From NCBI GenBank assembly GCA_027624865.1, contig JAQBTT010000001.1, positions 1-53,777 of the forward strand: a stretch of DNA of 53,777 nt, given 5' to 3'. A model generated the notes under the pieces. It ran no database searches. It was not told where the DNA came from and worked only from the letters and a program-made list of their open reading frames with translations. The stretch is from a bacterium (GTDB taxonomy: Bacteria > Patescibacteriota > Minisyncoccia > Minisyncoccales > UBA10102). The translations under genes and the position numbers were made by a program. Positions 20,207-52,570 of this stretch are shown piece by piece (the stretch's first letter is position 1; each line of letters begins with the position of its first letter).

Positions 20207-20295
20207 ATCAGTACCCTTACGAGGGTACGTTTAGAGAGTTTGATCCTAGCTCAGGATGAACGCTGGCGACGTGGATAAGGCATGCAAGTCGAACG

Positions 20296-20418
20296 TGTCA
20301 GTGTTACGCACTGACCGCAGACACACGCAGACTTGACGCGGAAATACGCAGAAAAATAGTTTCTGCGTGATTCTGCGTTTGTTCTGCGTAGTTCCGCGGC
20401 CAATGCGTAGCATTGGCA
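20296..20418 (+). repeat. 123-nt hairpin-cluster insertion module, copy 1, replacing 16S helix 6 / V1
   Basis: About 85% identical by eye to 31201-31321 in the 23S. The 3' 57 nt match at 55/57. Confidence 0.85.
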
Positions 20419-21929
20419 AGTGGCAAACGAGTTAGTAACACGTGGATACGTACCCTAAAGACGGGCACAACCAGCCGAAAGGTTGGCTAATTCCCGATAG
20501 CCCCCTCTTTCGCTTTTTGTTTCACAAAAAGCTTCAGAGGGCAAGGCCGTAAGGCTTCGCCCTCCGTAGCTCTGTGTGGAACGCAGAGCGAAGGAGGGGT
20601 AAAGAAGCAATTCGCTTTAGGAGCGGTCCGCGGCCTATCAGCTTGTTGGTGAGGTAAAAGCTCACCAAGGCTATGACGGGTAGGGGAGGTGAGAGCCTGT
20701 TCCCCAACGCGGGTACTGAGATACGGACCTGACACCTACGGGTGGCCGCAGTCGAGGATATTGGACAATGGGCGCAAGCCTGATCCAGCGACGTCGCGTG
20801 TGGGATGACGGCCTTCGGGTTGTAAACCACTTTTATAGAGGAAGAAGGCGCATCTCACTGTCGTTCGATGCGAAAGATACTTGTTGATATTTGTTTCTCG
20901 CTTTGCTCGAAACGATACTCGTTGATATTCATTGCAATGAGTATCGCGAGCGTAGCGAGCAAGTATCAATAAATATCTATGAATATTAGCACCGAGCGAG
21001 AGTGAGGTGCGTCTGACGGTACTCTATGAATAAGGGGGTGCTAACTCTGTGCCAGCAGCAGCGGTAATACAGAGCCCCCAAGCGTTATCCGGATTTATTG
21101 GGCGTAAAGCGTCTGTAGCCGGTTTGGCAAGTCTCTTGTTAAATACCAAGGGCTCAACCTTTGGAATGCAAGGGAAACTTTTAGACTAGAGGATGTTAGG
21201 GGCTGATGGAACTCTTAGTGGAGGGGTGGAATCCGTTGATATTAAGAGGAACACCGAAAGCGAAGGCATTCAGCTGGAACAATCCTGACGGTGAGAGACG
21301 AAAGCGTGGGGAGCAAAAAGGATTAGATACCCTTGTAGTCCACGCTGTAAACGATGGATACTAGCTATGTGAAGTGTCGACCCTTCACGTGGCGAAGCTA
21401 ACGCGTTAAGTATCCCGCCTGGGAAGTACGATCGCAAGATTAAAACTCAAAGGAATAGACGGGGGTCCACACAAGCGGTGGATCATGTGGCTTAATTCGT
21501 CAACAAACGAGGAACCTTACCAGGGTTTGACACCTACTGGAAAGCCTCCTGAAAGGGAAGCCTTCTCACAAGGACCAGTAGGCAGGTGTTGCACGGCCGT
21601 CGTCAGCATGTACCTTGAGGCGCTCCGTTAAATCGGGTAACATGCGCAACCCCTATCGCTTGTTTTATATGTCAAGCGAAACTGCCTGAGACAATCAGGA
21701 GGAAGGTGGGGATGACGCCAGGTCCGCGTGGCCCTTTGATATCCTGGGCTGCACACATGATACAATGGAGCCGACAATGGGACGCAATACAGTAATGTGG
21801 AGCAAATCCCTAAACGGCCCCTCAGTTCGGATTGAGGTCTGCAATTCGACCTCATGAAGCCGGAATCGCTAGTAATCGCGTATCAGCTATGGCGCGATGA
21901 ATATGTTCCTGGACCTTGTACTCACCGCC

Positions 21930-22798
21930 AAATAAAATGTGCCCGGCGGTTTACTTCACTAGCAGGTTAAAGTCCTGTCTTTGCAAAAGCAAAGTAGCCA
22001 AAAAATTAGCAGTCCTGGCTCGTAAGAGTCCAGGGTGGAGGGCTTGAGGCAAATAGCAGCCTATGACATAATGAATTTGAACGACTCCTGCGGGCGGTCT
22101 GAAGGAAGTTCAAGAATAATTCGTGCATAAGGATGCTAGGAAATGTGAAATAAATTACCCGGGGAGATCCTAGAAATGAGAGTCTTTTCTGATAATTTCT
22201 AGGAAGTCAGCTAGTGCCATAGTATCTTGCTTGGCAAGAGAAGGGCCTAACCTAAAAAGCATATGCTTTCAAAAGATTACATTGTTGGATTAACCGATGG
22301 GGAGGGGAGTTTTACTGCGTACCTCAGGCCTCCTCGCAAAGAACATGGCTCAAAGAGCTATCGCGTGGAATGTCATTACTATTTGAAGCTTCGAGAAGAT
22401 GACTTAGCCTTGTTAAAAAAGCTAAAGCAATTCTTTAAAGTAGGACTGGTATCATTTCAGAGAGATAGACGATTGAATCATCACGATTGCTATCGGTATG
22501 AAACAACGAATCTAAAGGACATTTGTGAAGTTATCATTCCATTTTTTGATGCAAATCCCTTGCAAGGGAATAAGATGCGAGACTATCGCTTATTCAAGAA
22601 GATTGTAAAAGCAGTAGTAAAGAAAGAGCATCGAACCAATGAAGGATTTTTGAAGATTAAGAAATGGAAAGAAGAAATGCATACTTTTGGGGCTCGCTGA
22701 ATACGGGAAATCCGTATGTTCAGCCTCGATATGGAAAGTCGAGGGCTCCTATTTACTAGGAGCTGGGAACGAGACATTTGACTCAAATGAACTCACTC
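21930..22798 (+). mobile_element. Intervening sequence / intron in the 16S decoding centre (between E. coli C1403 and C1404 equivalents) carrying a LAGLIDADG ORF
   Basis: Exon ttgtactcaccgcc | 869 nt | cgtcaagtc restores the universal CACCGCCCGUCA. The intron class was not established. Confidence 0.75.
22263..22700 (+). CDS. LAGLIDADG homing endonuclease (single-motif, I-CreI-like size)
   Basis: 145 aa with YIVGLTDGEGSF, located inside the 16S intervening sequence. Confidence 0.85.
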   Translation: MLSKDYIVGLTDGEGSFTAYLRPPRKEHGSKSYRVECHYYLKLREDDLALLKKLKQFFKVGLVSFQRDRRLNHHDCYRYETTNLKDICEVIIPFFDANPLQGNKMRDYRLFKKIVKAVVKKEHRTNEGFLKIKKWKEEMHTFGAR

Positions 22799-23101
22799 CG
22801 TCAAGTCAAGCGAGCCGGGAATACCCGAAACTCCACCTCGCGTGGATCTAAGGTAGGCTCGGTGAGAGGGACTAAGTCGTAACAAGGCACCGGTAGGGGA
22901 ACCTGTCGGTGGATCACATCATTTTTGAAAGTGTCGTCCAGATAAGCCCCGCCCTTTCTACGTCGCTCTACTGTCAATCGACGAGTATGGCGATGTGGAA
23001 AGGTATTCTTCGGAAATCATATTTCTTGAGGAAAGAGCGGGGTGATCTGCGGTGTAACTAGAGCCGTTAATTCTAGTTCTAGACATTTATGTTTAGTTTG
23101 T

Positions 23102-23129
23102 GGAGTCGGAACAACTTTTAGCAATCAAC
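23102..23129 (+). promoter_or_regulatory. 3' strand of the 16S processing stem
   Basis: ggagtcggaacaacttttagcaatcaac is complementary to 20179-20206. Confidence 0.7.
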
Positions 23130-23309
23130 TTAGCATACGCAACTTGCAGGAGAGGGTATTCACCCCGCCCCAAATCTTTGGTTTACAAACGTTATGTTTT
23201 TGGATGTAAAAATAATGTATGCCGTGCATAGATTTGGGGCGGGGTTCACAAAACTCCTGTTTTTGTTATGATAGGGAACAGGTTTTCCTTAGTTCCGTTA
23301 AGGGACTAT

Positions 23310-23383
23310 GCGCGTGTAGCTCAGCTGGTTAGAGCATTTCACTGATAATGAAAAGGCCGGAGGTTCGAGTCCTCCCACGCGCA
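23310..23383 (+). tRNA. tRNA-Ile (anticodon GAU)
   Basis: gcgcgtg/cacgcgc acceptor, anticodon loop ctGATaa, T arm ggagg-ttcgagt-cctcc. No CCA is encoded. Confidence 0.9.
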
Positions 23384-23519
23384 CAAGAAAACTAGACCGA
23401 GTCTAGTTTTTGAGAGATATGGTACCTGCTTTGAGAAAACGACTTGCCTTCAGCGGTTTTCTAAAGCAGGCCTGGGATTTGCATTATTCGTCCGCCAGGA
23501 GGCGGACGGCGCAAATCCC

Positions 23520-23616
23520 CCAAAAGACAAGCAGTTGTCTTTTGGGCCCGTGGCTCAGCTGGGTTAAAGACAACTGCTTGTCTTTAACGGGGTTTGAAAC
23601 AACTGCTTGTTTCAAA
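23520..23616 (+). repeat. Three tandem hairpins built on an aagacaa-NNNN-ttgtctt core, plus a 19-nt duplicate of the tRNA-Ala 5' end (23544-23562)
   Basis: ccaaaagacaagcagttgtcttttgg, gttaaagacaactgcttgtctttaac, gtttgaaacaactgcttgtttcaaac. gggcccgtggctcagctgg is identical to 23761-23779. Confidence 0.8.
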
Positions 23617-23720
23617 CGGACATTTTAGCGAACCCTCCGTGGTGAGCGTTAAAAAATGCCCAGGGTATAATGTAGTAAGCTCCTGCGAAGCCGTAAAAAA
23701 CTGCACCGGCTATAATATAG
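23605..23720 (+). repeat. Dispersed repeat family, copy A (core gaaccctccgtggtgagcg plus two tandem tataat-containing units)
   Basis: Near-identical to the reverse complement of 53665-53777. The core is shared with 30625-30699. Confidence 0.85.
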
Positions 23721-23760
23721 TAAGGTCTTTGAGAGTTGAAAATTGTTTGTAGAGTTTAAA

Positions 23761-23833
23761 GGGCCCGTGGCTCAGCTGGTAGAGCGCCTCATTTGCAATG
23801 AGGAGGTCAGCGGTTCGAACCCGCTCGGGTCCA
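23761..23833 (+). tRNA. tRNA-Ala (anticodon UGC)
   Basis: G3:U70 in the acceptor gggcccg/cgggtcc, anticodon loop ttTGCaa, T arm agcgg-ttcgaac-ccgct. Confidence 0.9.
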
Positions 23834-23845
23834 CAAATTCAGAAG

Positions 23846-23867
23846 ATCGCCAAGCAGGTGATTTTTT
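23846..23867 (+). terminator. Terminator after tRNA-Ala
   Basis: atcgcc-aagca-ggtgat followed by a T6 run. Confidence 0.55.
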
Positions 23868-23881
23868 GATAAAGTTAAGAC

Positions 23882-25165
23882 ATGCAAAAAGAAACACAAT
23901 GGGATGTTGTGGTTATTGGCGGTGGGGCATCTGGAATGATTGCTGCTGGTCGCGCTGGCGAGCGTGGCCGTAGTGTTTTACTGCTTGAGAAAAATCCTAC
24001 CTTAGGTAAAAAACTCCTTATCACGGGTGGCGGGAGATGTAACGTTACAAACAACAAGCCTGCAGTGCCAGTGATGCTCAAGGAATATAAGGGGAGTGAT
24101 AAGTTTCTCTTTTCTGCGTTTGTGCAATTTGGAGTAAAAGAAACACTGCAGTTTTTTAGCGATAGGGGAATGAAGATAAAGGAAGAGGCAGAGGGAAGAA
24201 TGTTTCCTGTATCAAATAAGGCAAAGTCAGTATGGGATGTGCTTATGCAATATGTGAAGAAAGGAGGGGTGAAGGTACAGACAAAGGCGCACGTTACAGG
24301 AATTACCTATGATACATCTTTACAGCAGTATGTTATAGCTCTTGCTGATGCAACTGAAGTGCATGCAAAAGCGTGCATTATTGCAACTGGCGGGATATCG
24401 CATCCTGAAACTGGTTCAACTGGTGAAGGGTTTTTGTGGCTTAAAAAATGTGGGCATGTGATAATTGAAAATGATTTAGCGCTTGTACCAATTGTACTAA
24501 GGGATGTATGGGCAAAGAAGCTAGCTGGGGTAACGCTCAATAATATTAAGCTCACTACATTTAAAAATGGAGTGAAGCAAAAGGCGTGCAAAGGGAAATT
24601 ACTTTTTACGCATGTTGGCATTAGTGGTCCTACGGTTTTAAATATGAGCAAAGAAATAGGAGAGCTTCTTTCGGAGAAAGAAGGGGCAGAATATATCAAA
24701 AAGGAAAAGATAAGTGAAGTTACAATTATGCTGGATTTATTCCCAACTCTTGATAGCGGTGTGCTTGGAAAGAAACTTCAGGCGCTTTTGACTGAAAGCA
24801 GTAACAAAAAGATAAAGAATGTGTTGTCTCCATTTATTTCTTCTACTCTTGTTGGTGTAGTGCTTATGCTCAGCAATGTGAATGGTGAAACACCAAGTCA
24901 TAGCGTACGCGCAGGAGAGCGAAAGGCGCTTACCTCTTTACTAAAAGCCATGCCCTTATCTGTTGCAGGGCTCCTTGGGAAGGATAAGGCAATAGTATCT
25001 TCAGGGGGCGTGATGCTTTCGCAAGTCAATTTCAAAACAATGCAGTCCCGCGTTCTGCCCCAACTCTACTTAATAGGTGACGTATTAAATATTGATCGCC
25101 CTTCTGGAGGATATAGTTTGCAATTATGCTGGACCACAGGCTATATTGCAGGGAGTAACTGCTAG
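23882..25165 (+). CDS. HI0933/BaiN-like FAD-dependent flavoprotein
   Basis: WDVVVIGGGASGMIAAGRA dinucleotide fold and LLITGGGRCNVTN, which is diagnostic of the HI0933 family. Confidence 0.8.
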   Translation: MQKETQWDVVVIGGGASGMIAAGRAGERGRSVLLLEKNPTLGKKLLITGGGRCNVTNNKPAVPVMLKEYKGSDKFLFSAFVQFGVKETLQFFSDRGMKIKEEAEGRMFPVSNKAKSVWDVLMQYVKKGGVKVQTKAHVTGITYDTSLQQYVIALADATEVHAKACIIATGGISHPETGSTGEGFLWLKKCGHVIIENDLALVPIVLRDVWAKKLAGVTLNNIKLTTFKNGVKQKACKGKLLFTHVGISGPTVLNMSKEIGELLSEKEGAEYIKKEKISEVTIMLDLFPTLDSGVLGKKLQALLTESSNKKIKNVLSPFISSTLVGVVLMLSNVNGETPSHSVRAGERKALTSLLKAMPLSVAGLLGKDKAIVSSGGVMLSQVNFKTMQSRVLPQLYLIGDVLNIDRPSGGYSLQLCWTTGYIAGSNC

Positions 25166-25209
25166 TATGGAGTGAGGGTGTATTATGAAAGATAAAAATA
25201 TTGTATAAT

Positions 25210-25989
25210 ATGAACATGCCAGAAAAGAAAAAAAGAATTCTTCTTATAGAAGATGAGAGGACCATTGCCAATCTTATTGAATTAAGACTCAAGCGCTCTG
25301 GATATGAGGTAGAAGTTATATACGATGGAATAAAGGGATTGAAGACCATTTTAGAGTCCCCCCCAGATCTTGTCCTTTTAGATATGTTGCTTTCTGGTTT
25401 GAGTGGTTTTGATATTTTAAAGACGTTAAAAGAGAAGAATCTTTTGCCCAACTTGCCTGTTATCATTATTTCAAACTCTGCCCAACCCGTGCAGTTAAAG
25501 CGTGCAGTAGATTTGGGGGCAAGGGGGTACTTAATAAAGGTAAACTTTAGTCCAGAGGAAGTGGTAGAAAAGGTAGAAGCGGTATTTAAAGAGGGCATAA
25601 AACAAGATTCTTTAAGTGAGAGCAATGTTCTTTTAGTGGAAGATGAGAAGTTTCTTGCCGATGCTATTGAAAGAACATTTACTCAAAAACAGTATAAAGT
25701 TTTGCAAGCTACAAATGCCAGAGAGGCAAGAAACATACTTGGTGAGGAAAAGGTCGATGTAATACTCCTGGATATTATTCTTCCTGATATTGACGGATTT
25801 CAGTTCTTGGAGGAATTGAAGAAAGACGACAAAGTTAAAGGTATCCCTGTGATTATTATCTCAAACCTTGGGCAAAAAGAAGAGATTGAGAAGGGGAAAA
25901 AGATGGGAGCGATTGATTACATTATAAAATCAGATACAATTCCAAGTGAAATTCTAGAAAAGGTTGAGAGTATACTTAAAAGTAATTAA
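25210..25989 (+). CDS. Response regulator with two receiver (REC) domains and no output domain
   Basis: Two REC units (LLIEDE..LLDMLL..YLIK and LLVEDE..LLDIILP..YIIK). The start is ATG 25210 or 25216, and TATAAT lies at 25204-25209. Confidence 0.8.
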   Translation: MNMPEKKKRILLIEDERTIANLIELRLKRSGYEVEVIYDGIKGLKTILESPPDLVLLDMLLSGLSGFDILKTLKEKNLLPNLPVIIISNSAQPVQLKRAVDLGARGYLIKVNFSPEEVVEKVEAVFKEGIKQDSLSESNVLLVEDEKFLADAIERTFTQKQYKVLQATNAREARNILGEEKVDVILLDIILPDIDGFQFLEELKKDDKVKGIPVIIISNLGQKEEIEKGKKMGAIDYIIKSDTIPSEILEKVESILKSN

Positions 25990-26004
25990 TATATATAAAA
26001 TACT

Positions 26005-27204
26005 ATGGCAATACAAGCTGGAGTTGGACAAGGTTCACAAAAGGATCCCTATGAGGCAGGATTTGAGGCGTGTCAAGCGGCACTTGATAAATTAGAAGGA
26101 GAGAAAGCAGACTTGGTTATTGTATTTTCCTCGGTTGCGCTTGACCAAAAAGAGGTTATTCGTGGTGTGCGCAATGTAAGTGGTGACGCTCTGCTTGTTG
26201 GGTGTAGTGATGCTGGGAGCATTACAAGTTCGGGCCCCGCTAAGAATGCAGTTGGGGTGATGGCAATTTCTTCAGATAAGCTGCACTTCTATACTGGCCT
26301 TGGCAAAGGAGTGAGCGATGGAGCACGGGAAGCTGGGCAAGCTCTTGCAAAAGAAATTCAAGAAAAAGCAAAAGAACCCTTGAAAACATTTTTAATGTTC
26401 CCAGATGTACTTACGGGAAATGGAGCAGATATTGTGCGAGGGGTATTAGATGTTTTGGGGGAGCATTTCCCATTGCTGGGAGGAGCTGCTGGTGACGATT
26501 TTCTTTTTAAAAAAACCTATCAGTACAAAGATGGCGAGGTTGCATCAGGCGCTGTTGCTGGGGTTGGTATCTCTGGAGATTTTGTAATGGGAGCTGGAGT
26601 ACGTCATGGATGGATGCCCATTGGTAGCTCAATGACTGTAACAAAGTCAAAAGGTTCTGTGGTGTATGAGCTGGACGGGAAACCTGCTGCTAGAATCTAT
26701 GAAGACTATTTTGGAGAACGAGCAGAAGATTTAAAAAGTGAACCTTTAGCGCGCTTGGCAATAACATATCCTTTAGGGATTAAGGTGAGTGATCTTGATG
26801 AATATTTAATTCGAGACCCTATCACGGTGGACGAAAATGGGGCTATCACGTGTGCAGCTGAGATCCCAGAAGGGTCAGAGATTAGGCTGATGATTGGGAG
26901 TAAGGATAAGGCGATAGAGGCCGCTCAAGATGCAGCAGAAAAGCTCATGCGAGATTTTAAAGAGAAGAATGCAACACCAAAATTTGTTTTGATGTTTAAC
27001 TGTATTGCACGAGAAAAATTGTTTGCACAAAAGGCAAATGATGAGATTCAAGCGATAATGAACATTATTGGCAAAGACGTTCCATTATTGGGATTCTACA
27101 CGTACGGGGAAATAGCCCCCATAAAAGGAGAGGTGCACGACATGGAGAAGGTTGTTTCAAAATTTTACAATGAAACCGTTGTGATGCTTGCGATAGGAGA
27201 ATGA
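26005..27204 (+). CDS. FIST-domain (FIST_N + FIST_C) sensory protein
   Basis: 399 aa, cytoplasmic. The layout (DLVIVFSS..GCSDAG..GDF.. and the C-terminal LGFYTYGEIAP) is typical of FIST proteins. Confidence 0.7.
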   Translation: MAIQAGVGQGSQKDPYEAGFEACQAALDKLEGEKADLVIVFSSVALDQKEVIRGVRNVSGDALLVGCSDAGSITSSGPAKNAVGVMAISSDKLHFYTGLGKGVSDGAREAGQALAKEIQEKAKEPLKTFLMFPDVLTGNGADIVRGVLDVLGEHFPLLGGAAGDDFLFKKTYQYKDGEVASGAVAGVGISGDFVMGAGVRHGWMPIGSSMTVTKSKGSVVYELDGKPAARIYEDYFGERAEDLKSEPLARLAITYPLGIKVSDLDEYLIRDPITVDENGAITCAAEIPEGSEIRLMIGSKDKAIEAAQDAAEKLMRDFKEKNATPKFVLMFNCIAREKLFAQKANDEIQAIMNIIGKDVPLLGFYTYGEIAPIKGEVHDMEKVVSKFYNETVVMLAIGE

Positions 27205-28163
27205 ATTCTTTCGTTATTCTTGGAACTATTGCGCTTGCTGGTATTGTTTTTGCTTTTATCTTTACGCAGGGCGCGAGAAAGCAACTTCTAAACTTGCAAA
27301 AAAAGAACGTACGTTTTGAAAAACTCCTTTTGCAAAAGGAGCGTGAGCTTGCTCAAGCCAATGGAATACTGAAGGAACGTAGCAAAGAGTCCAATGAAGT
27401 AGCAAGGGTACTTGTAAGAAGAGATTTGGAGTTAACAGAGACAAACGAGCGTTTACGTGAGCTTGATTCAGTGAAATCAGAATTTGTGTCTGTTGCAGCT
27501 CACCAGCTAAGAACTCCCTTAACAGGTATTAAGTGGACCCTCAATGCTCTGCTTACTGGTGAGGTTGGTACGCTGGATAAGGACCAAAAAAAACTTGTTA
27601 CAGATGGTCTTGCTGCAACGTATAGATTAATAGAACTTATCAATGACTTATTGGATACTGCGCGTATTGAGGAAGGGAGATTTGGGTTTAACTTTAAGAT
27701 GCTTTCCTTAGCTCCAATACTTAAGCAGTCGATTGTGAACTATGCAGTGATTGCAAAGAAGAAAGGCATACAGCTTATACTCAAGTTGCCAGAAGCAAAG
27801 CTCCCTTTGCTAAAACTTGACGCAGAAAAGATTGGAATTGTACTAGATAACCTTATTGATAACGCTATAAAGTATACAATTCCTGGGGGCAAGATAACAG
27901 TGCGAGCTACACTTCAAAAAGAGCATGTTGTGCTAGAGGTGGAAGATACAGGAATTGGGGTTCCAAAAGAGCAAGTGCATCGCGTCTTTACTAAATTTTT
28001 TAGGGCAGTAAATGCTCAGCTTGCAGAGACCTCAGGAACCGGACTTGGACTATACGTATCCCATAACATTGTAGAGCACCACAGAGGAACTCTTTCTTTT
28101 ACAAGTAGTGAGGGGAAAGGGAGTACATTTGTTGTTTCTCTTCCTTTAGTTAATCAAAGATAA
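27201..28163 (+). CDS. Sensor histidine kinase (TM, coiled coil, HisKA, HATPase_c)
   Basis: H-box SEFVSVAAHQLRTPLT, N-box DNLIDNAIKYT and G-box GTGLGL. The start overlaps the FIST stop (ATGA). Confidence 0.85.
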   Translation: MNSFVILGTIALAGIVFAFIFTQGARKQLLNLQKKNVRFEKLLLQKERELAQANGILKERSKESNEVARVLVRRDLELTETNERLRELDSVKSEFVSVAAHQLRTPLTGIKWTLNALLTGEVGTLDKDQKKLVTDGLAATYRLIELINDLLDTARIEEGRFGFNFKMLSLAPILKQSIVNYAVIAKKKGIQLILKLPEAKLPLLKLDAEKIGIVLDNLIDNAIKYTIPGGKITVRATLQKEHVVLEVEDTGIGVPKEQVHRVFTKFFRAVNAQLAETSGTGLGLYVSHNIVEHHRGTLSFTSSEGKGSTFVVSLPLVNQR

Positions 28164-28181
28164 TACATTTACATAGTAGTT

Positions 28182-28448
28182 ATGCTAAAAACACTTACCT
28201 TCCATCCATCTCGCATCGGGTGCCCATCAATTCCTGGCACCATGAAAGGGATTGTAATTTCAATTCCCGGAGTAAAAGACGTAGAAGTAAGGTATGAAGA
28301 ACGTTCAATAGATGTTACTTTTGACGAAACGAAAACATCACCTGAGGAAATCACAAAGAAGATAGGAGAAGAGATGGGCTTGGCAATGGAAGTTACTAAG
28401 CATGGCTCAAAAAAAGAAGGGAACGTAGCACATACCTGTCCTATGTAA
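28182..28448 (+). CDS. Small HMA-like (ferredoxin-fold) protein with a degenerate metal site
   Basis: IPGVKDVEVRYEERSIDVTFD...EEITKKIGEEMG matches the HMA fold pattern, but the usual CxxC is replaced by GCPSIPGT. The C-terminus is HTCPM. Confidence 0.4.
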   Translation: MLKTLTFHPSRIGCPSIPGTMKGIVISIPGVKDVEVRYEERSIDVTFDETKTSPEEITKKIGEEMGLAMEVTKHGSKKEGNVAHTCPM

Positions 28449-28557
28449 TAGGGAGGGTACTTTTCCACAGGCGCTCTATTGCTCTGATTCTATCTTTGGT
28501 ATAATAATTGAACGCACAAAAGGTCGTTTTTAGCATAGTAAAGGTAAATATATTACA

Positions 28558-28764
28558 ATGATGCAAAGAAGCACAATAGGTTTGGTAGTCGGTATTCTTT
28601 TAGTTGTTGGTGGTCTAAACTGGGGATTGGTTGGACTCTTCAACATGGATGTTGTCGCTACCGTTTTTGGAGGAACTGCAGCCTTGGGTTCCAAGGTCGT
28701 ATATGTTCTTGTAGGGATTGCAGCCATATACAAGCTCGCCAAGATGGTGGGGATAATGAAGTAA
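28558..28764 (+). CDS. DUF378-family small membrane protein
   Basis: 68 aa with GGLNWGLVGLF and two TM helices. Confidence 0.75.
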   Translation: MMQRSTIGLVVGILLVVGGLNWGLVGLFNMDVVATVFGGTAALGSKVVYVLVGIAAIYKLAKMVGIMK

Positions 28765-28828
28765 TTGATACTTCTTTCTGCCCAGCCCTCTTTAAAGAGG
28801 GCTGGGTCAAAGAGATATTTATTCTATA

Positions 28829-29251
28829 ATGCATTCATTCTTTAATTTTTTAAATCGTATTTTCCCAGCACAAGTTGTATTTGCGCACTGCGATATTCCT
28901 TGTGGTATTTATACTCCAGAGCCAGCACAAACTGCAGCTTTGACTGTAATTCGCATGATAGAGAAGCTTCAGGAAGCAGAGGCAGGGGATGCTCACAACA
29001 TAGCAAGGTTCACTCAAGCAAAAGAAGAGCATGCACAAAAATGCAAACAAGAACTCCTTATTCTTTGGACTGATTACTTTAAAGAAGAGCATCTTTTGGT
29101 GTTCCCAAATCTCCACGATATTTTTTGGAAAGCAACAAAGCTGTGTTCCAAGAATAAGCAGGAAGTAAGTATGGAGGCTGCTCAGGCCTTGAAGCAGGCA
29201 GTAGCTGAGATAGCAGAGATGTTCCACAAAGTAGAGGCAGCAAAGAAATGA
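28829..29251 (+). CDS. sodN: Nickel superoxide dismutase precursor
   Basis: A leader peptide followed by HCDIPCGIY (the Ni-hook His-Cys-x-x-Pro-Cys-Gly-x-Tyr) and LWTDYFK. Confidence 0.85.
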   Translation: MHSFFNFLNRIFPAQVVFAHCDIPCGIYTPEPAQTAALTVIRMIEKLQEAEAGDAHNIARFTQAKEEHAQKCKQELLILWTDYFKEEHLLVFPNLHDIFWKATKLCSKNKQEVSMEAAQALKQAVAEIAEMFHKVEAAKK

Positions 29252-29309
29252 TGAGACTGCTTGAGTTGCTTGAAACCGGGTTTCAAGCAGTCAGAGGCAG
29301 CGTTATACT

Positions 29310-29627
29310 ATGATTTCCTATTTTAAAGTGAAGGGCCAGAGCATGGAGCCCTGGGTAAAAGAAGGGGACTTTGTTTTGGTAGATAGGTTGTCCTATCTAT
29401 TTTTAAGACCAAAGGTAGGACATGTAGCATTAATAAGGCATCCAGAGAAGCCAAACTTGCTAATTATAAAGCGCATTGCGCGAAAAGAGGATAATAGGTA
29501 TTGGGTAGAGGGGGACTCTTCTTTTAATAGTACAGATAGTCGGCATTTTGGGTGGCTCAAAAGAGAGCTTTTAGTGGGAAAAGTTATCCACAGGACAGGC
29601 TCCTTTGCTCTTGGTATACTATCGTAA
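29310..29627 (+). CDS. sodX: S26-family peptidase, NiSOD maturation protease
   Basis: VKGQSMEP (Ser nucleophile), IIKRIA (Lys) and GDSSFNSTDSRHFG, located directly downstream of sodN. Confidence 0.75.
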   Translation: MISYFKVKGQSMEPWVKEGDFVLVDRLSYLFLRPKVGHVALIRHPEKPNLLIIKRIARKEDNRYWVEGDSSFNSTDSRHFGWLKRELLVGKVIHRTGSFALGILS

Positions 29628-29683
29628 TATAAGAAAAGGTCGGAAAAGGTAGTTTCCATAATTAAAGAATACACAAAAAATAT

Positions 29684-30738: not shown

Positions 30739-30971
30739 CAGGAATCAATTGTAATTATAGGCAGGTAGTGGATGCCTTGGGATGTAAAGGCGATGAAGGA
30801 CGTAGCTTAGCTGCGATAAGCCTCGGGGAGCAGTGTAGCATGCTTTGATCCGGGGATTTCCGAATGGGGAAACCTGGTTTATGGAAACATAGATCGTCTG
30901 TCAGCAATGACAGAAGCGAACCCGCTGAAGTGAAACATCTCAGTAAGCGGAGGAAAAGAGAACGTAAGTAT

Positions 30972-31156
30972 CCTTGTGCTTCGCACAAGGAATTCCTAAT
31001 TAACCTAATTCCTAATTAACCTAATCAATAACCAATGTCTTAATACTAATGACCAAAAACTTATAGAGTACTATATTGGTTTTTAGAAATTAGGATCTGG
31101 GATTTCTTTAGAAATTAGAAATTAGATATTAGAAATTTCTCGTGCGAAGCACGAGG
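30972..31156 (+). repeat. 185-nt AT-rich insertion in 23S domain I bounded by inverted GC hairpins (IVS- or MITE-like)
   Basis: ccttgtgcttcgcacaagg (30972-30990) against the reverse complement of ctcgtgcgaagcacgagg (31139-31156) gives 17/19. TAT flanks both ends. The interior is made of stuttered words (aattcctaattaacc x2, ttagaaatta x3). Confidence 0.75.
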
Positions 31157-31200
31157 TATATTCCCTTAGTAGCGGCGAGCGAAATGGGAGGAGCCTAAAC

Positions 31201-31321
31201 TGTCAGTGCTTTGCATTGACCGCAGAAGGACGCGGACTTGACGCGGAACTGCGCGGAAATATTTTCTGCGTGATTCTGCGTTTGGTCTGCGTAGTTCCGC
31301 GGCCAATGCGGAGCATTGGCA
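31201..31321 (+). repeat. 121-nt hairpin-cluster insertion module, copy 2, in 23S domain I
   Basis: Homologous to 20296-20418 in the 16S: tgtcagtg...cattgaccgcag...ttctgcgtgattctgcgtttg.tctgcgtagttccgcggccaatgcg.agcattggca. Confidence 0.85.
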
Positions 31322-33072
31322 GGGTTGTAAGACTATAGCGTCGGGAGTTGTTTTGAAACGTTGCGCGATTTTGGAGATCTCAATAGTGGGGTCCCCGAAA
31401 TTGCGAAGCGATTTTGAAGGAATTTCTGAGGGAGAATATTTAGATAAAGTGGTTAGAAAAACGCCTCTGGAACGGGCGGCCAAAGAGGGTAATAGCCCCG
31501 TATTCGAAAACTGCCTTTATGCTCCTTGCTATTTTTCTTGAGTACCTCGGGACACGAATATCCCGTGGGAAACATCCGGGACTATCCGGAAAGGCTAAAT
31601 ACTTTACATCACCGATAGTGAACGAGTACCGTGAGGGAAAGGTGAAAAGCAGCCCGGTGAGGGCGATGAAATAGAACCTGAAACTATCTTGCCTACAACG
31701 AATCGGAGGGGAGTTTACTCCCTGACGGTGTGCTTTTTGCAGAACGAGCCAACGAGTGTTCCTAACAGCTTTGTCTAAGCGCCTTTGGCGTGCAGGCACA
31801 GCGAAAGCGAGTGTGAATAGCGCGTTTGGCGTCCGCAAGGACGCTATGAGTTGTTGGGAACGACCCGAAGCCAAGCGAGCTTGCCATGAGCAGGGTGAAG
31901 GATGACGAAAGTCGTCTGGAGGCCCGAACCCGTAGATCGTTCAACGTCTTGGGATGACTTGTGGTAAGAAGTGAAAAGCTAATCGAGCTTGGTAATAGCT
32001 GGTTCTCTCCGAAATAGCTTTAGGGCTAGCGTCGCAAAGCAAGTCTTGGAGGTAGAGCTCTGAAAAGAGCGCTCTTGGAGCAATCCAGGCGCTTTTATCA
32101 AACTTCGAATGCCAAGACTCTAGATGCGGCAGTCAGAACGTGGGGGCTAAGCTCCGCGCTCAAAAGGGAAACAGCCCAGATCTTCATCTAAGGTCCCTAA
32201 ATCAAGCTAAGTGCAAAATAAGGAAGTGAGGCTCCAAAGATAGCTAGGAGGTTCGCTTAGAAGCAGCTATCCTTTAAAAATAGCGTAATAGCTTACTAGC
32301 TAAGGAGTTTTGCGCCGCAAATTTATCGGGGCTAAGCTTGGTACCGAAGATAAGGCCCAGCTCTCTTTCAAGAGGGCTGGGGGTAGGAGAGCGTCCTCTT
32401 TGCAATGAAGGTGAATCGTGAGGTTTGCTGGAGCGGAGAGGAGTGAGAATGTTGGCATGAGTAACCACAATGCAAGTGAAATCCTTGCACACCGAAAACC
32501 TAAGGTTTCCTTGGCAATGACAATCACCCAAGGGTTAGGCGGCCCTAAGTGGTGCACCAAATGGTGTATTGCGATGGACAGAAGGTTAATATTCCTTCCC
32601 CTTGTCATATGCTTTTTCAGATGACGGAGTGTAGTAACTCTTGTGAATTATTGGATTTTTGTCCTTGGCGTGAGGGGTAACCCAAGCGCAGAGGCGACTC
32701 GCTGTTATGGCGGGGAGAAGAGTGAGCACGCTTCCCGGAAAAGTTCTGAAAGTTTGAGTATGATGAGTCCGTACCGTAAACCGACACAGGTGGGTTGGTA
32801 TCAATGTACTAAGGTGAACGGGTGAAAGCTCCTGAAGGAACTCGGCAAATTAGTGGTCGTAACTTCGGGATAAGACCTCCCTGTAGCAATACAGGGCGCA
32901 GCAAACGTATTCCTGGCGACTGTTTACCAAAAACACAGGTCCCTGCATAACTCGAAAGAGGAAGTATAGGGGCTGACGCCTGACCAGTGCTGGAGTGTTA
33001 AGCCTGCAGGTGGCTTTGAGCAATCAAAGCTGCTTAGTGGGTGAAGCCCCAGTGAACGTCCGCGGTAACTAT

Positions 33073-33810
33073 AAACTCACGGGTTGTAGTTATAAAATCT
33101 GGCCATATGCGGGAACATCTCGACAAAAATCTTAGACGTACTCGTAAGGAATTCGTCTCCTTGCAGTAACAATCGATCTAAGAGAGAAAATCCGCAGGAA
33201 AGACCATTTGTGAGTCACAAAAAAACATGAGAAGTCAATCATGGGAAAAGCAAATCCCCAGCCACATTGGGTGGTATCTTGCAGGATTTGCAGATGGTGA
33301 AGGAAGCTTCAACATCTCCCTTAAGAGAGATATAGAGTATCGACTCGGTTGGCATATTGAACCAAGTTTCAATGTATCCCAACGAGAAAGAACAATTCTT
33401 GCTTTGTTCAAACAACATCTTGGAGTAGGAACACTTCGTCAACGAAAAGATGGAGTAGTATACTACGAAGTGCGCAATTATCGTGCACTGCAAGATAAAG
33501 TTATTCCTTTCTTTGAGAAATTTACTTTTCTTTCTTCAACAAAAAAGAGAAATTTCTCGCTCTTCCGTAAAATTATTGTTCTTATGAATGAAGGGCAACA
33601 TACAAATGCGGAAGGTTTGAAGAAAATCCTTTTGATTAGAGAACAAATTAATAAAGGTCATGGAAGAACAAGGAAGTATTCATTAGACGATTATTTAGAC
33701 TCACAAGCGGAATCCTCAGAGACTATACGCCAGACCCTGAGAGAGCCGAAAGGCGAATCGAAGGGATGATATAGTCCGATCTCATAGGTGACTATGAGCT
33801 AACATGTATG
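33073..33810 (+). mobile_element. Group I intron at the site equivalent to E. coli 23S U1917 (helix 69 loop), carrying a LAGLIDADG ORF
   Basis: The 5' exon ends in U (gtaactat) and the intron ends in G. The internal guide GUAGUU pairs with exon AACUAU with a U.G at the splice site. The core elements aatctggccatatgcggg and gatatagtcc are present. Joining the exons restores GUAACUAU|AACCGUG, so helix 69 (cgcgg/ccgtg) can form. Confidence 0.75.
33227..33769 (+). CDS. LAGLIDADG homing endonuclease (single-motif)
   Basis: 180 aa with WYLAGFADGEGSF. The ORF 3' end runs into the intron core (its stop overlaps gatatagtcc). Confidence 0.85.
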   Translation: MRSQSWEKQIPSHIGWYLAGFADGEGSFNISLKRDIEYRLGWHIEPSFNVSQRERTILALFKQHLGVGTLRQRKDGVVYYEVRNYRALQDKVIPFFEKFTFLSSTKKRNFSLFRKIIVLMNEGQHTNAEGLKKILLIREQINKGHGRTRKYSLDDYLDSQAESSETIRQTLREPKGESKG

Positions 33811-33824
33811 AACCGTGTTAAAGT

Positions 33825-34097
33825 AGGAAATCTGCTTTAGTAAAATCTGGCTATATGCTGGAAAATCTGAGTATCCGACACTACTTGAAAGAGTGAAAAT
33901 GTGTTCGGTGCAGACAATCAGCAGGAAACCAAAATCATAAAGTGTGATGAGTAGGATCCTCAGAGACTATACGCCAGACCCCGACATTACGTCGGGGAAG
34001 ATATAGTCCGAACTTCATGGCGACATGAAGAGTGAAGTAGAAATACTTCACCGCCATGCCTCTTTTTATGAGGCTTGGTCTGAAAGTAACATGATTG
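33825..34097 (+). mobile_element. ORF-less group I intron at the site equivalent to E. coli 23S U1931
   Basis: The 5' exon ends in U (ttaaagt) and the intron ends in G (atgattg). The guide GCUUUA pairs with exon UAAAGU with a U.G wobble. The core aatctggctatatgctgg, cagacaatcagcagg and gatatagtcc is homologous to the neighbouring intron. Joining the exons gives AAAGU|AGCGUAAUCCCUUG. Confidence 0.7.
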
Positions 34098-34420
34098 AGC
34101 GTAATCCCTTGCCTGGTAAGTTCAGGCCTGCATGAAAGGCGTAACGACTGGGAAACTGTCTCCAGGAGCTGCCCGGTGAAAATGCAATACCGGTAAAGAT
34201 GCCGGTTACCTGCGGCTAGACGGAAAGACCCCGGGAGCTTTACTATAGCTTCTTATTGTCTTGTCATTTTGCCTGCGTAGAATAGCAGGGAGGCTTTGAT
34301 GCCCGTTTTTCGGAATGGGTGGAGCCAACAGTGAAATACCTGTCTGGTAGGAAGATAAGACTAATTCCGCGTATGCGGATGACAGTGGGAGGTGGGTAGT
34401 TTTAGTGGGGCGCTAGCCTT

Positions 34421-34729
34421 AACACAATGGGGCCATCTAAGAGTAATTTTAGATGCCAAACTCGACTAATATGCTGGAATATCTGGAGTACTTAAGGAGT
34501 AATCCAACAAGTGTGGCCGTAAGATACGGCTACCAGACAATCAGCAGGGAAGGTATAATAGAGGTACCACCCTCAACGACTACACGTCGAGCCCGAACTA
34601 TTGAAAGAATGAATGTTCGGTGGTGATATAGTCTGAACTCTATGGCGACATAGAGACTCGGTAATGTTCACACATTGCGCCAGTGAAACAATCCGAGACT
34701 TAAGTGCTTACTTAAGGTTAACAGAATTG
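34421..34729 (+). mobile_element. ORF-less group I intron just 3' of the P-loop (about E. coli 2257-2263). Boundaries are uncertain by up to ~8 nt.
   Basis: It interrupts ggggcg..|..cctaaagagtagcggagg. It shares the core ctcgactaatatgctgg, cagacaatcagcaggg and gatatagtct with the other introns. An alternative boundary pair is 34415/34724. Confidence 0.6.
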
Positions 34730-35060
34730 CCTAAAGAGTAGCGGAGGCGTTTAAAGGTCAGCTAAGTCCGGATGGAAATCGGACCGGTCGTGTAAAGGCG
34801 CAAGCTGGCTTTACTGCGAGACGGATATGTCGAGCAGTTGCGAAAGCAGAACTTAGTGAACCGATACGCCGTAATAGAAGGCGTAAAGATCATCAACCAA
34901 AAGTTACCCCGGGGATAACAGGCTGGTAGTGCCCACGAGTCCATATCTACGGCACTGTTCGGCACCTCGATGTCGGCTCACCTTATCCTGGGGGTGGAGA
35001 AGCTCCCAAGGGTTTGGCTGTTCGCCAATTAAAAAGGTACGCGAGCTGGGTTCAGACCGT

Positions 35061-35328
35061 CAATAATGAACCATGACATTGAGTAACACACGGCGGCTTT
35101 CATAAGTAATTATGATCGCAAACCGACTCATATCGGTGGATTCCTATAAACTTTTTCGCAACCTGGAAGAGTAGGAGAATACCGAGGCAACCTGTATGTA
35201 TATTATATATGGGAGCTGTAGAGACTTGATCTATGATCAGACGGGAGAGAATATTTTTCCGTAACACGTCGGCATCCTTAGTAAAGGATGGTGGTATAGT
35301 CCAAACATTTGGTAACAAGTGAGTATTG
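35061..35328 (+). mobile_element. ORF-less group I intron at the site equivalent to E. coli 23S U2593 (peptidyl-transferase centre)
   Basis: Exon gggttcagaccgt | 268 nt ending in G | cgtgagacaggt restores GAACGU|CGUGAGACAG. The core aaaccgactcatatcggtgg and ggtatagtcc is present. Confidence 0.7.
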
Positions 35329-35619
35329 CGTGAGACAGGTTGGTCCCTATCTACCGCAGGCGTCAAGTCTTGAGGAGATTCGTCTCTAGTACGAGAGGAC
35401 CGAGATGAACTAACCTCTGGTGTACCAGTTGTCCTGCCAAGGGCATCGCTGGGTAGCTATGTTGGGAAGGGATAAGCGCTGAAAGCATATAAGCGCGAAG
35501 CCTACTCCAAGATGAGGACTTTAAGATCCCTCGAAGATCACGAGGTTGATAGGCTCTAGGTGAAAGCCCGGTGACGGGTTCAGCCGAGGAGTACTAATGA
35601 TCTACATACGATTATTTCT

Positions 35620-52463: not shown

Positions 52464-52465
52464 TA

Positions 52466-52554
52466 CCGCTGATATGTGCCGATTTTGCTGATTGATGCCG
52501 ATTCACTATATCTGGTATCAGCGTAAATCAGCCAGTATCAGCATTAATTAGCGG
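52466..52554. repeat. Stuttered-word palindrome (gctgat/gccgatt words against atcagc words)
   Basis: accgct...agcggt outer pair. gctgat x2 in the left arm and atcagc x3 in the right arm. Confidence 0.65.
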
Positions 52555-52570
52555 TGAGCGATAGCGAACA

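What the first reader, a model, noticed from the sequence alone, without database searches (positions are those of the whole stretch)
20296..20418. One ~122-nt hairpin-cluster module is inserted in both the 16S and the 23S rRNA gene (16S copy)
The segment tgtcagtgttacgcactgaccgcag...ttctgcgtgattctgcgtttgttctgcgtagttccgcggccaatgcgtagcattggca replaces helix 6 / V1 of the 16S. A clearly homologous 121-nt segment sits at 31201-31321 in 23S domain I. Overall identity is about 85% by eye, and the last 57 nt match at 55/57. Both copies fold the same way: hairpin gtcagtg/ca(c/t)tgac, a long cgcggaa...ttccgcg stem enclosing cgcagaaa/tttctgcg, and hairpin ccaatgc/gcattgg. Two unrelated rRNA helices are not expected to carry the same expansion sequence through vertical descent. 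This therefore points to a small non-autonomous mobile or insertion RNA element, or to gene conversion between rRNA expansion segments. I am not aware of a described element class that targets both rRNAs in this way.
Basis: seen in the sequence. Interest (0 to 1): 0.8.

Follow-up and report, generated by a model that had tools for sequence, protein, structure and literature searches.

The report
Mobile palindromic repeat inside rRNA genes
The same ~122-base hairpin sequence in this bacterium's 16S and 23S rRNA genes is a copy of a widespread small palindromic repeat of CPR/Patescibacteria bacteria, which also sits in RNase P RNA, in introns and in frame inside essential protein genes, and whose longer form carries a small nuclease gene of unknown function.

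Summary
Window 20296-20418 (16S helix 6) and 31201-31321 (23S helix-15 site) are 87% identical (55/57 at the 3' end), against at most 58% for shuffles.

Each copy folds into one ~55-bp hairpin.

The module is not rRNA-specific. Each arm holds four 7-nt units (CGCRGAA / TTCYGCG) spaced 10/11-12/10 nt. A pattern scan found more than 118 loci in CPR genomes. A second scan found 71 copies of the same subfamily, at 10 or more rRNA sites and in RNase P RNA. One 23S gene carries four copies.

Over half of the general-family arrays lie in frame inside housekeeping genes (Pgk, EF-G, LepA, RecG, UvrC, DnaG).

In LepA genes and in free-standing copies, the same inverted arrays bracket a complete GxxExxY (PD-(D/E)XK) nuclease gene. 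Four to five of six GxxExxY genes chosen by protein homology alone have such arrays.

Best reading: a MITE-like derivative of a ~0.5-kb nuclease cassette, tolerated at surface hairpin tips and probably acting as an RNase III-type intervening sequence. The closest analogues are Rickettsia palindromic elements and rRNA IVSs. The mobility mechanism and the fate of the RNA are untested.

The parts
20296..20418 (+). Module copy 1 (123 nt), occupying the variable part of 16S helix 6 (between E. coli nt 68 and 101)
   Evidence: Sequence. Rfam SSU alignment shows a 102-nt insert. Flank mapping. Fold -72.6 kcal/mol, z -11. nhmmer with the family profile gives E 9.6e-35.
20296..20315 (+). Terminal sub-palindrome hpA of copy 1 (TGTCAGTG-ttacg-CACTGAC)
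   Evidence: Conserved in all 32 aligned stable-RNA modules, although this part was fixed by the search pattern. Its loop covaries with the loop of hpB.
20316..20352 (-). 5' arm of copy 1: four units that read TCYGCG on the minus strand (CGCRGA on the rRNA strand), spaced 10/11/10
   Evidence: Unit scan.
20362..20398 (+). 3' arm of copy 1: four units TTCTGCG / TTCTGCG / TCTGCG / TTCCGCG
   Evidence: Unit scan. This arm was the basis of the scan.
20399..20418 (+). Terminal sub-palindrome hpB of copy 1 (GCCAATGC-gta-GCATTGGCA)
31201..31321 (+). Module copy 2 (121 nt), forming the hairpin at the helix-15 position of 23S domain I (between E. coli nt 270 and 279)
   Evidence: Sequence. Rfam LSU alignment shows a 106-nt insert. 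Flank mapping. Fold -80.4 kcal/mol, z -12.5. nhmmer E 2.9e-33. Identical in a separately deposited assembly record, L119.
31221..31257 (-). 5' arm of copy 2 (four units)
31265..31301 (+). 3' arm of copy 2 (four units)
20228..21961 (+). Host 16S rRNA gene. At 1734 nt it also carries other insertions, of 76 and 154 nt.
30745..35617 (+). Host 23S rRNA gene. At 4873 nt it also carries two group I introns, a LAGLIDADG ORF, and further insertions of 197 and about 95 nt.
52465..52557 (.). Related but distinct 4+4 unit palindrome (units ATCAGCG / CGCTGAT) in the dnaK-dnaJ spacer. It is degenerate and folds only weakly.
   Evidence: nhmmer E 0.05. Sequence. DNA fold z -2.2. Flanking genes are Hsp70 and DnaJ. 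The same unit type brackets the GxxExxY genes P0022 and P0060.

Best explanation
The two segments are copies of a non-autonomous, MITE-like palindromic repeat that is widespread in Patescibacteria (CPR).

Each arm is an array of four 7-nt units (CGCRGAA on the 5' arm, TTCYGCG on the 3' arm) spaced about one helical turn apart (10/11-12/10 nt). In the subfamily found in stable-RNA genes, each arm is capped by a short sub-palindrome.

The same inverted arrays bracket a ~125-aa GxxExxY (PD-(D/E)XK) nuclease gene in a ~0.5-kb cassette. The ~120-nt module is that cassette without its ORF.

Inferred steps: the unit arrays are the binding sites of the nuclease or of a partner protein, and this protein moves or copies the element at the DNA level.

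Copies persist only where an insertion is harmless. Such places are the tips of surface hairpins of 16S, 23S and RNase P RNA, rRNA leaders, introns, spacers, and surface loops of proteins when the insert is in frame.

In the rRNA precursor the module folds into a ~55-bp helix that extends the host hairpin coaxially. Most likely this helix is cut out by RNase III like a classical intervening sequence. Otherwise it is kept as an expansion segment.

The two window copies are each other's closest relatives. They therefore arose by spread within the genome, or have been homogenised since.
For: Shown:

1. The two copies are homologous.
2. The arm pattern occurs in more than 118 loci, nearly all CPR MAGs, with several contigs per genome. 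There are 126 four-unit arrays with stereotyped 10/12/10 or 10/11/10 spacing.
3. A second scan found 71 copies of the same subfamily. They map to 16S h6 and the h10 region; to 23S E. coli positions about 230, 270 (H15), 540 (H25), 652, 1163 (H45) and 1708 (H63); to 23S leaders; and to RNase P RNA. One 23S gene has four copies. Two further copies lie inside an intron next to E. coli 2451.
4. Of the 126 arrays, 72 lie in stop-free frames of at least 150 aa. Examples are Pgk, UvrC, EF-G, LepA, RecG, DnaG and aminoacyl-tRNA synthetases.
5. In LepA of at least four lineages the inverted arrays flank a complete GxxExxY domain (TIGR04256 1-116/116, E about 1e-36; PF13366). Against Aquifex LepA this is a clean 151-aa in-frame insertion. 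L047 has a free-standing copy and L095 has two decayed copies. All GxxExxY hits in the loci are flanked by arrays. L015 keeps only a remnant at the LepA site.
6. Of six GxxExxY genes chosen by protein homology alone, four have significant flanking inverted unit arrays (z 5.4-12.3) and one has weak ones. An Asticcacaulis gene is among them. The unit sequence differs by lineage: TTCYGCG, ATCNGCG, GTCAGTG, TCCGTG.
7. Module similarity does not follow the site (0.73 for the same site against 0.72 for different sites). It can follow the genome instead: window pair 0.87, L140 pair 0.95.
8. The helix is conserved at the RNA level. 98.6% of cells are paired, with 53 double-change cells against 19 +/- 3 in shuffles. 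Of the 16 differences between the window copies, 7 are A-U/G-U/G-C switches that keep the pairing.
Against: - No transposition or homing event was observed. No clean filled-versus-empty site pair and no target-site duplication were found.
- A 125-aa PD-(D/E)XK nuclease is not a known transposase, and its activity is unknown (PMC3424549).
- No GxxExxY gene lies in this 53.8-kb window. The window holds only the two rRNA copies plus one degenerate relative.
- H15 carries a module in four lineages and h6 in many. Some copies could therefore be old and inherited vertically.
- The loci were collected with patterns taken from the element itself.
- RNase III excision is argued only by analogy.
- The covariation could also reflect a DNA-level palindrome constraint.
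Confidence: 0.7

Rival explanations
1. These are two vertically inherited, lineage-specific rRNA expansion segments at h6 and H15. They resemble each other because gene conversion or concerted evolution within the genome has homogenised them. No mobile element is involved.
For: Modules occupy the same h6 and H15 sites in several other lineages. The window copies are each other's nearest relatives.
Against: - The same module occurs at 10 or more unrelated rRNA sites, in RNase P RNA, in introns, in leaders and in frame in protein genes.
- Same-site copies are no more alike than different-site copies.
- An ORF-carrying version exists.
- Conversion needs a pre-existing homologous tract at each site, which itself needs explaining.
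Confidence: 0.1
2. This is a selected RNA module. It would be a periodic dsRNA platform, one motif per helical turn, that binds a CPR-specific protein or serves as a dedicated processing signal for stable RNAs. On this reading it was recruited repeatedly for function, and is not merely a tolerated parasite.
For: - The stable-RNA subfamily keeps its terminal sub-palindromes, with near-invariant G.U and A.C asymmetries, across sites and lineages.
- There is strong covariation.
- All 71 copies of this subfamily lie in or beside stable-RNA genes.
Against: - The general family is equally common inside coding sequences and spacers, often as single arms that cannot form the helix.
- The arrays flank a nuclease gene.
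- Many CPR rRNAs lack such insertions (PMC11270868).
- The 10.3-10.7-nt period fits B-DNA at least as well as A-RNA.
Confidence: 0.12
3. It is a self-splicing or enzyme-spliced intron, removed with ligation of the rRNA.
For: CPR rRNA insertions are often introns and are reported to be absent from transcripts (PMC9297842, PMC11270868). This 23S gene does contain two group I introns.
Against: - No Rfam intron model matches the modules.
- At ~120 nt of plain hairpin there is no catalytic core.
- The sites are hairpin tips that are classical IVS sites (H25, H45), not intron sites.
- Copies in proteins are translated in frame.
Confidence: 0.03
4. It is a metagenome assembly artefact, with a repeat mis-joined into both genes.
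For: The source is a metagenome assembly, and repeats can cause chimeras (see the ambiguous joins).
Against: - The copies differ at 16 positions, and each continues seamlessly into correct rRNA flanks.
- The 23S copy is identical in a separately deposited ENA record.
- The same architecture recurs in more than 60 independent contigs.
Confidence: 0.01

Closest known systems
Rickettsia palindromic elements (RPE; Ogata et al. 2000, 2002, as summarised in PMC2229807)
   Same: Both are palindromic repeats of about 105-146 bp that fold into long stem-loops. Both are dispersed in small genomes and inserted in frame in conserved protein genes (19 in Rickettsia). Both also occur in structural RNA genes, which in Rickettsia are tmRNA and RNase P M1 RNA. 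Both are apparently tolerated at surface positions.
   Different: The taxon and the sequence differ. The CPR element is built from four periodic 7-nt units per arm. It also colonises rRNA helices, leaders and introns. It has an ORF-carrying form (a GxxExxY nuclease), whereas no RPE-linked enzyme is named in the review read here (PMC2229807). Sequence homology to RPE was not tested.
Bacterial rRNA intervening sequences (IVS), e.g. the Coxiella burnetii helix-45 IVS (PMC4990558), and the Salmonella, Leptospira and Campylobacter IVSs
   Same: Both are extra sequence at hairpin tips, and H25 and H45 are shared sites. In both, terminal complementary sequences form a long stem. Some IVSs carry a small ORF of unknown function. 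They are regarded as selfish and horizontally acquired. Tsurumaki et al. 2024 (PMC11270868) already suggested that short CPR insertions at these sites are IVSs.
   Different: Classical IVSs are known only from rRNA genes and are not reported as a genome-wide repeat family. Here the same module is also in 16S h6 and h10, several other 23S helices, RNase P RNA and coding sequences. RNase III excision has not been shown here.
Bacterial MITEs (Correia/NEMIS, ERIC, RUP and others; PMC2229807)
   Same: Both are small, ORF-less, multi-copy elements with terminal inverted repeats and a stable hairpin as RNA. Both resemble internal-deletion derivatives of a longer element.
   Different: No target-site duplication or TA ends were found. 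The associated protein is a PD-(D/E)XK nuclease of ~125 aa, not a DDE transposase. The arms are unit arrays rather than simple TIRs.
GxxExxY protein family (TIGR04256 / Pfam PF13366 PDDEXK_3)
   Same: The ORF between the arrays is a full-length member of this family.
   Different: The family is listed with unknown function (PMC3424549). Its bracketing by inverted unit arrays, its in-frame insertion into LepA and its link to ORF-less palindromes were not found in the searchable literature.
Eukaryote- or archaeon-type rRNA expansion segments
   Same: Both are helix extensions at variable surface hairpins such as H25, H45 and H63.
   Different: Expansion segments are site-specific lineages of sequence. 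They are not copies of one repeat shared among sites, among RNAs and with protein genes.

Membership tests
MITE / non-autonomous TIR element | Small, ORF-less element with terminal inverted repeats | tested here: met
   121-123 nt with two inverted 4-unit arms. No ORF of at least 80 aa is confined to the module; the only listed one crossing either copy is the long minus-strand ORF 31166-31483 over copy 2.
MITE / non-autonomous TIR element | Multiple dispersed copies per genome | tested here: met
   Related genomes have 4 or more contigs with copies, e.g. MHOU01, JACRDK01 and CAZREI01. In the window's own genome only 2 copies plus 1 related element could be seen.
MITE / non-autonomous TIR element | A longer element with the same ends that encodes the mobilising enzyme | tested here: inconclusive
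   GxxExxY nuclease cassettes carry the same inverted arrays. That this protein mobilises anything is untested.
MITE / non-autonomous TIR element | Target-site duplication | tested here: inconclusive
   No direct repeat is evident at the rRNA junctions. The only candidate filled/empty comparison was ambiguous.
rRNA intervening sequence (RNase III type) | Extra sequence at the tip of a surface rRNA hairpin, forming a long stem through terminal complementarity | tested here: met
   Family members sit at the classical H25 and H45 sites.
rRNA intervening sequence (RNase III type) | Excised from the precursor by RNase III without religation, leaving fragmented rRNA | not testable with these tools
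Rickettsia palindromic element-like repeats | Palindromic repeat inserted in frame in conserved protein genes and also in structural RNA genes | tested here: met
   For the family: proteins; rRNA, RNase P RNA. This is a resemblance in behaviour only.
Rickettsia palindromic element-like repeats | Sequence homology to RPE-1 to RPE-8 | not tested
   No RPE sequences were compared. Membership is not claimed.
Group I / group II intron | Match to the intron covariance models and a catalytic core | tested here: not met
   Rfam finds group I introns at 33799-34030 and 34410-34655 but nothing at the modules.
REP/BIME with RAYT transposase | ~35-nt imperfect palindrome with a conserved GTAG, associated with a Y1 (IS200/IS605-like) transposase | tested here: not met
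   The arms are four periodic 7-mers, and the associated ORF is PD-(D/E)XK.
GxxExxY (TIGR04256) cassette | Contains a GxxExxY ORF | tested here: not met
   The window modules have no ORF, and no GxxExxY homologue lies in the window. They share only the flanking arrays.

The most novel reading that the evidence does not exclude
GxxExxY (PDDEXK_3) proteins, a large family of unknown function, may be the nucleases of a previously unrecognised and extremely compact class of bacterial mobile elements. Each element would be a ~125-aa ORF bracketed by inverted arrays of 3-4 lineage-specific 7-nt units. Their ORF-less derivatives would be palindromic MITEs that colonise rRNA helices, RNase P RNA, introns and coding sequences in frame. 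This would account for the 'uncharacterised short insertion sequences' of CPR rRNA genes, and possibly for the origin of some classical rRNA intervening sequences.
Probability: 0.4. Interest if true: 0.85.

Novelty: new variant of a known kind. Interest (0 to 1): 0.72.

Why it matters
- CPR bacteria are known for rRNA genes full of insertions. The introns have been characterised, but the many short ORF-less insertions were left as 'uncharacterised, probably IVS' (PMC11270868). Here at least one large class of them is a single dispersed repeat family with a recognisable architecture.
- The same repeat expands housekeeping proteins in frame.
- The repeat is tied to a nuclease family of unknown function, which gives that family a testable role.
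- There are practical consequences. Such modules shift 16S and 23S lengths. They can break assemblies and primer sites in V1. They can also confound rRNA-based phylogeny, because copies are more alike within a genome than between orthologous sites.
- If the nuclease link holds, this is a new minimal mobile-element design, and a route by which rRNA expansion segments and IVSs originate.

Tried and rejected
- **Viral contigs.** The exact 21-mer found nothing. The general pattern found two hits, both plain 10-nt tandem repeats in giant-virus bins and not the element.
- **Chance hits in the genome scan.** A few hits are simple tandem repeats in unrelated taxa (Moraxella, Streptomyces, Thermoguttaceae). 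They were excluded from the counts.
- **Source contig.** The window is not the similarly sized contig MHOU01000008. Its source is ENA ERZ23495043 scaffold_1759 / SRR2027830.
- **Target-site duplications and filled/empty sites.** None were found. Contigs that share an identical GxxExxY gene diverge upstream exactly inside a neighbouring element. This could be recombination at the repeat or assembly chimerism, so no conclusion was drawn.
- **A hairpin next to every array.** This was tested. Hairpins are enriched (43% against 21% at or below -10 kcal/mol) but not universal, so it is not claimed as a defining feature.
- **Pairs of opposite arrays as one composite element.** In RecG the two opposite arrays about 280 nt apart are separate half-elements in two loops, not a composite.
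- **Literature.** No paper was found on a CPR palindromic element, on MITEs in Patescibacteria, or on GxxExxY mobility.
- **Rfam.** No family matches the module.

Full report
**1. The observation**

The window carries an rRNA operon on the plus strand:
- 16S at 20228-21961
- 23S at 30745-35617, with two group I introns
- 5S at 35892-35999

They align over their whole length at 107/123 = 87% identity. The last 57 nt match 55/57. Dinucleotide shuffles of one copy reach at most 58.5% identity, and the alignment score is 90 against -9.7 +/- 5.5. BLASTN gives E = 1.6e-27 and finds no other strong copy in the window.

The Rfam covariance alignments leave both segments as unaligned insertions at hairpin tips:
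- In the 16S there are 102 extra nt in the hairpin at SSU model 79-83.
- In the 23S there are 106 extra nt in the hairpin at LSU model 274-295.

I mapped the flanks onto E. coli rRNA, fetched as L121. The 16S copy lies between nt 68 and 101, which is helix 6 (V1). The 23S copy lies between nt 270 and 279, the helix-15 position of domain I. Helix names come from standard numbering, which is my own knowledge.

**2. The fold**

Each copy folds on its own into a single, nearly continuous hairpin. The energies are -72.6 and -80.4 kcal/mol, with z of -11 and -12.5. When the host flanks are included the helix stacks directly on the host helix.

Of the 16 differences between the two copies, 7 are A-U/G-U/G-C switches that keep a pair, including one double change. 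Most of the rest fall in unpaired positions. The copies contain 6 and 11 G.U pairs.

**3. Anatomy**

Each arm consists of four 7-nt units. They read CGCRGAA on the 5' arm and TTCYGCG on the 3' arm, spaced 10/11/10 nt. Each arm is capped by a 20-nt sub-palindrome: TGTCAGTG..CACTGAC at the 5' end and GCCAATGC..GCATTGGCA at the 3' end.

**4. The module belongs to a large dispersed family**

I scanned one genome per GTDB species with the degenerate 3'-arm pattern. Almost all are Patescibacteria MAGs: Saccharibacteria and the Staskawicz-, Doudna-, Wolfe-, Lipton-, Nomura-, Kaiser- and Harrisonbacteria, among others. There are also some Omnitrophota and one Saprospiraceae MAG. Several genomes contribute multiple contigs.

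After removing plain tandem repeats, 126 four-unit arrays remain. Their spacing is stereotyped: 10/12/10 in 72 arrays and 10/11/10 in 46. Thirty-four have the inverted partner arm within 130 nt.

**5. The stable-RNA subfamily**

A metagenome scan for the window's own subfamily (5' sub-palindrome plus first unit) returned 61 loci and 71 copies. Flank mapping and Rfam place them as follows:

| Host | Sites |
|---|---|
| 16S | h6 (about 17 loci, plus L003 from the genome scan); the h10 region |
| 23S | leader just upstream of the 5' end; E. coli about 230; 270 (H15); 540 (H25); 652; 1163 (H45); 1708 (H63); about 440 |
| RNase P class A RNA | L122 (module inside the gene, E 2e-24); L161 and L170 (at the 5' end) |

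Other points:
- L144 has the flanking GAGGAAAGTCCG motif, but Rfam did not call RNase P there.
- One 4.2-kb contig (L134) has four modules in a single 23S gene.
- Two general-family copies (L042b, L067) lie at the 3' end of an intron inserted next to E. coli 2451.
- H25 and H45 are the classical IVS sites.

**6. Covariation**

I aligned 32 distinct modules (A2). The RNAalifold consensus is the long hairpin.
- 98.6% of cells are paired.
- 53 double-change cells are observed, against 19 +/- 3 in shuffles (0 of 500 shuffles reach the observed value).
- These double changes are concentrated at columns 10-12 / 127-129. These are the 'loops' of the two terminal sub-palindromes, which therefore pair with each other.

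The local-hairpin alternative is also 98.8% compatible and has a few compensatory changes. The ends can therefore adopt either form.

Two caveats apply. The 5' sub-palindrome was fixed by my search pattern. A DNA-level palindrome constraint would also give similar counts.

**7. Similarity does not follow the site**

Same-site copies from different contigs average 0.73 identity. Different-site copies average 0.72.

The window's two copies are each other's nearest relatives (0.87). The two copies in L140 (H45 and H63) are 0.95 identical, and an RNase P copy (L122) is 0.90-0.93 identical to them. The four L134 copies are more diverged, at 0.69-0.79.

This is the pattern of a repeat family that spreads within genomes, or is homogenised within them. 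It is not the pattern of independent, vertically inherited helices.

**8. Protein genes**

Of the 126 general-family arrays, 72 lie within stop-free frames of at least 150 aa. In 58 of these the CGCRGAA orientation is in the sense strand, an orientation that in the window's copy is open in all three frames (my own reading of that arm).

Translation shows in-frame inserts in:
- Pgk, at the same site in two genomes
- UvrC
- EF-G
- LepA
- RecG, with two inserts
- DnaG
- Leu-, Ile- and Val-tRNA synthetase-like ORFs
- a giant surface protein, with three inserts

The encoded peptides are hydrophilic (for example TRNYAEKHAELRGKSLRQSASSLRKSA).

**9. The nuclease cassette**

In the LepA genes of L082, L109 and L057, and in ORFs of L122 and L153, the two inverted arrays are separated by about 380 nt. 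That stretch encodes a complete GxxExxY protein (TIGR04256 1-116/116, E about 1e-36; Pfam PDDEXK_3).

Against Aquifex LepA (2ywe), residues 2-72 and 224-431 align to chain residues 2-72 and 72-276. This is a clean 151-aa in-frame insertion in a G-domain loop.

Further cases:
- L047 has a free-standing 136-aa GxxExxY ORF between the same arrays.
- L095 has two frameshifted copies, both flanked.
- Every GxxExxY hit in the loci is flanked by arrays.
- L015 keeps only one arm and the first residues of the nuclease at the LepA site.

Those loci had been selected for arrays, so I repeated the test starting from the protein. A homology search found 1363 relatives, and I fetched six of them with their flanks.

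| Gene (locus) | Flanking unit | Result |
|---|---|---|
| P0032 (L185-188) | GATCNGCG | inverted arrays, z 5.4 |
| P0031 (L190) | GTCAGTG | inverted arrays, z 9.5 |
| P0060 (L195) | TCAGCG | inverted arrays, z 12.2 |
| P0102, Asticcacaulis (L192) | TCCGTG, 9-nt period | inverted arrays, z 12.3 |
| P0022 (L189) | CGCTGAT | weak, z 2.2 |
| P0105 (L194) | none | no arrays |

The unit sequence thus changes with the nuclease lineage. That is expected if the protein, or a partner, recognises the units.

**10. A third, related element in the window**

A family profile search of the window found a weak extra hit. The dnaK-dnaJ spacer at 52465-52557 is a degenerate 4+4 palindrome of ATCAGCG-type units. 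The window's genome therefore also holds a non-rRNA member of the wider class.

**11. What is shown and what is inferred**

Shown:
- the two copies are homologous
- they belong to a dispersed family
- the family occupies many stable-RNA sites and sits in frame in coding sequences
- the arrays are associated with GxxExxY genes
- the helix is conserved

Inferred:
- the ORF-less module derives from the cassette by internal deletion
- the arrays are the protein's binding sites (the period of about 10.3-10.7 nt, one helical turn, would suit binding along one face)
- the nuclease drives spread, whether by homing, transposition or repair-mediated copying
- copies survive only at permissive sites
- in rRNA the helix is removed by RNase III; this rests on analogy with IVSs at H25 and H45 (PMC4990558, PMC11270868), and retention as an expansion segment remains possible

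**12. Comparison with what is known**

In behaviour the element is closest to Rickettsia palindromic elements. These lie in frame in 19 protein genes and also in tmRNA and RNase P M1 RNA (PMC2229807). It is also close to rRNA intervening sequences.

Tsurumaki et al. 2024 recorded many short (<200 bp) ORF-less, non-intron insertions in CPR rRNA genes and suggested they are IVSs. They did not report that these are one repeat family, that it is shared with protein genes, or that it is linked to a nuclease.

PDDEXK_3 is listed with unknown function. Only three papers in the searchable library mention GxxExxY at all.

I therefore rate this a new variant of a known kind. It is not categorically new.

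**13. Caveats**

Counts are therefore biased lower bounds.
- Taxon labels are those of the deposited MAGs.
- No presence/absence polymorphism, target duplication, enzymatic activity or RNA data could be obtained.

Noticed in passing
window 52465-52557: The dnaK-dnaJ spacer holds a degenerate palindrome of 4+4 units (CGCTGAT.. / ..ATCAGCG). It is a different unit variant of the same element class, matching the arrays that flank some GxxExxY genes elsewhere.
   Followed up: partly
window 22263-22700: A LAGLIDADG endonuclease ORF (145 aa) lies about 300 nt downstream of the 16S 3' end, outside any Rfam-called intron. It may be a free-standing homing endonuclease gene or the remnant of an intron.
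   Followed up: no
window 21962-30744: The 16S and 23S genes are separated by about 8.8 kb. This stretch holds two tRNAs and protein genes: HI0933-like flavoprotein, response regulator, FIST, histidine kinase, Ni-SOD, signal peptidase and MscS-like channel. The rRNA genes are therefore effectively unlinked.
   Followed up: no
window 33227-34655: The 23S gene carries two group I introns (33799-34030, 34410-34655) and a LAGLIDADG ORF (33227-33769). The intron regions contain internal repeats (33712-33740 / 33956-33984 and 33093-33120 / 33841-33868).
   Followed up: no
window 23590-23664, 30625-30699 and 53665-53777 (inverted): A repeat of about 75-115 nt starts with a hairpin (GGGTTTGAAACAACTGCTTGTTTCAAAC). 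Copies occur upstream of a tRNA, immediately upstream of the 23S 5' end, and inverted at the window's end (75-91% identity). It may be a leader or processing element, or another repeat family.
   Followed up: no
window 20513-20590, about 20856-21010, about 30990-31186, about 31334-31430: There are four further rRNA insertions unrelated in sequence to the module: 76 and 154 nt in the 16S, 197 and about 95 nt in the 23S. The 197-nt one sits at E. coli 227/232, a site that carries the module in other CPR 23S genes.
   Followed up: partly
window 28780-28815 and 32355-32390: A 36-nt GC-rich hairpin (GCCCAGCCCTCTTTAAAGAGGGCTGGG) lies in a spacer upstream of the Ni-SOD gene. It resembles (83%) the tip of 23S helix 45. 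This may be chance or another small repeat.
   Followed up: no
L082, L109, L057, L122 (LepA insertion flanks): The host codons on either side of the LepA insertion are themselves palindromic (e.g. GTCAGGATGGTA/TACCATCCTGAC encoding VRMVYHPD). Compensatory changes between lineages alter loop residues (N/H/D). This suggests selection for hairpins next to the arrays, or a flank-derived palindromic footprint.
   Followed up: partly
L185-L188 (around 3665-4039) and the P0026 locus: [quoted passage not shown] This suggests clusters of small selfish ORFs.
   Followed up: no
L002, L022, L036 (Saprospiraceae MAG) and L192 (Asticcacaulis): Element-like unit palindromes and a unit-flanked GxxExxY gene occur outside the CPR, so the class is probably not CPR-specific.
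   Followed up: partly
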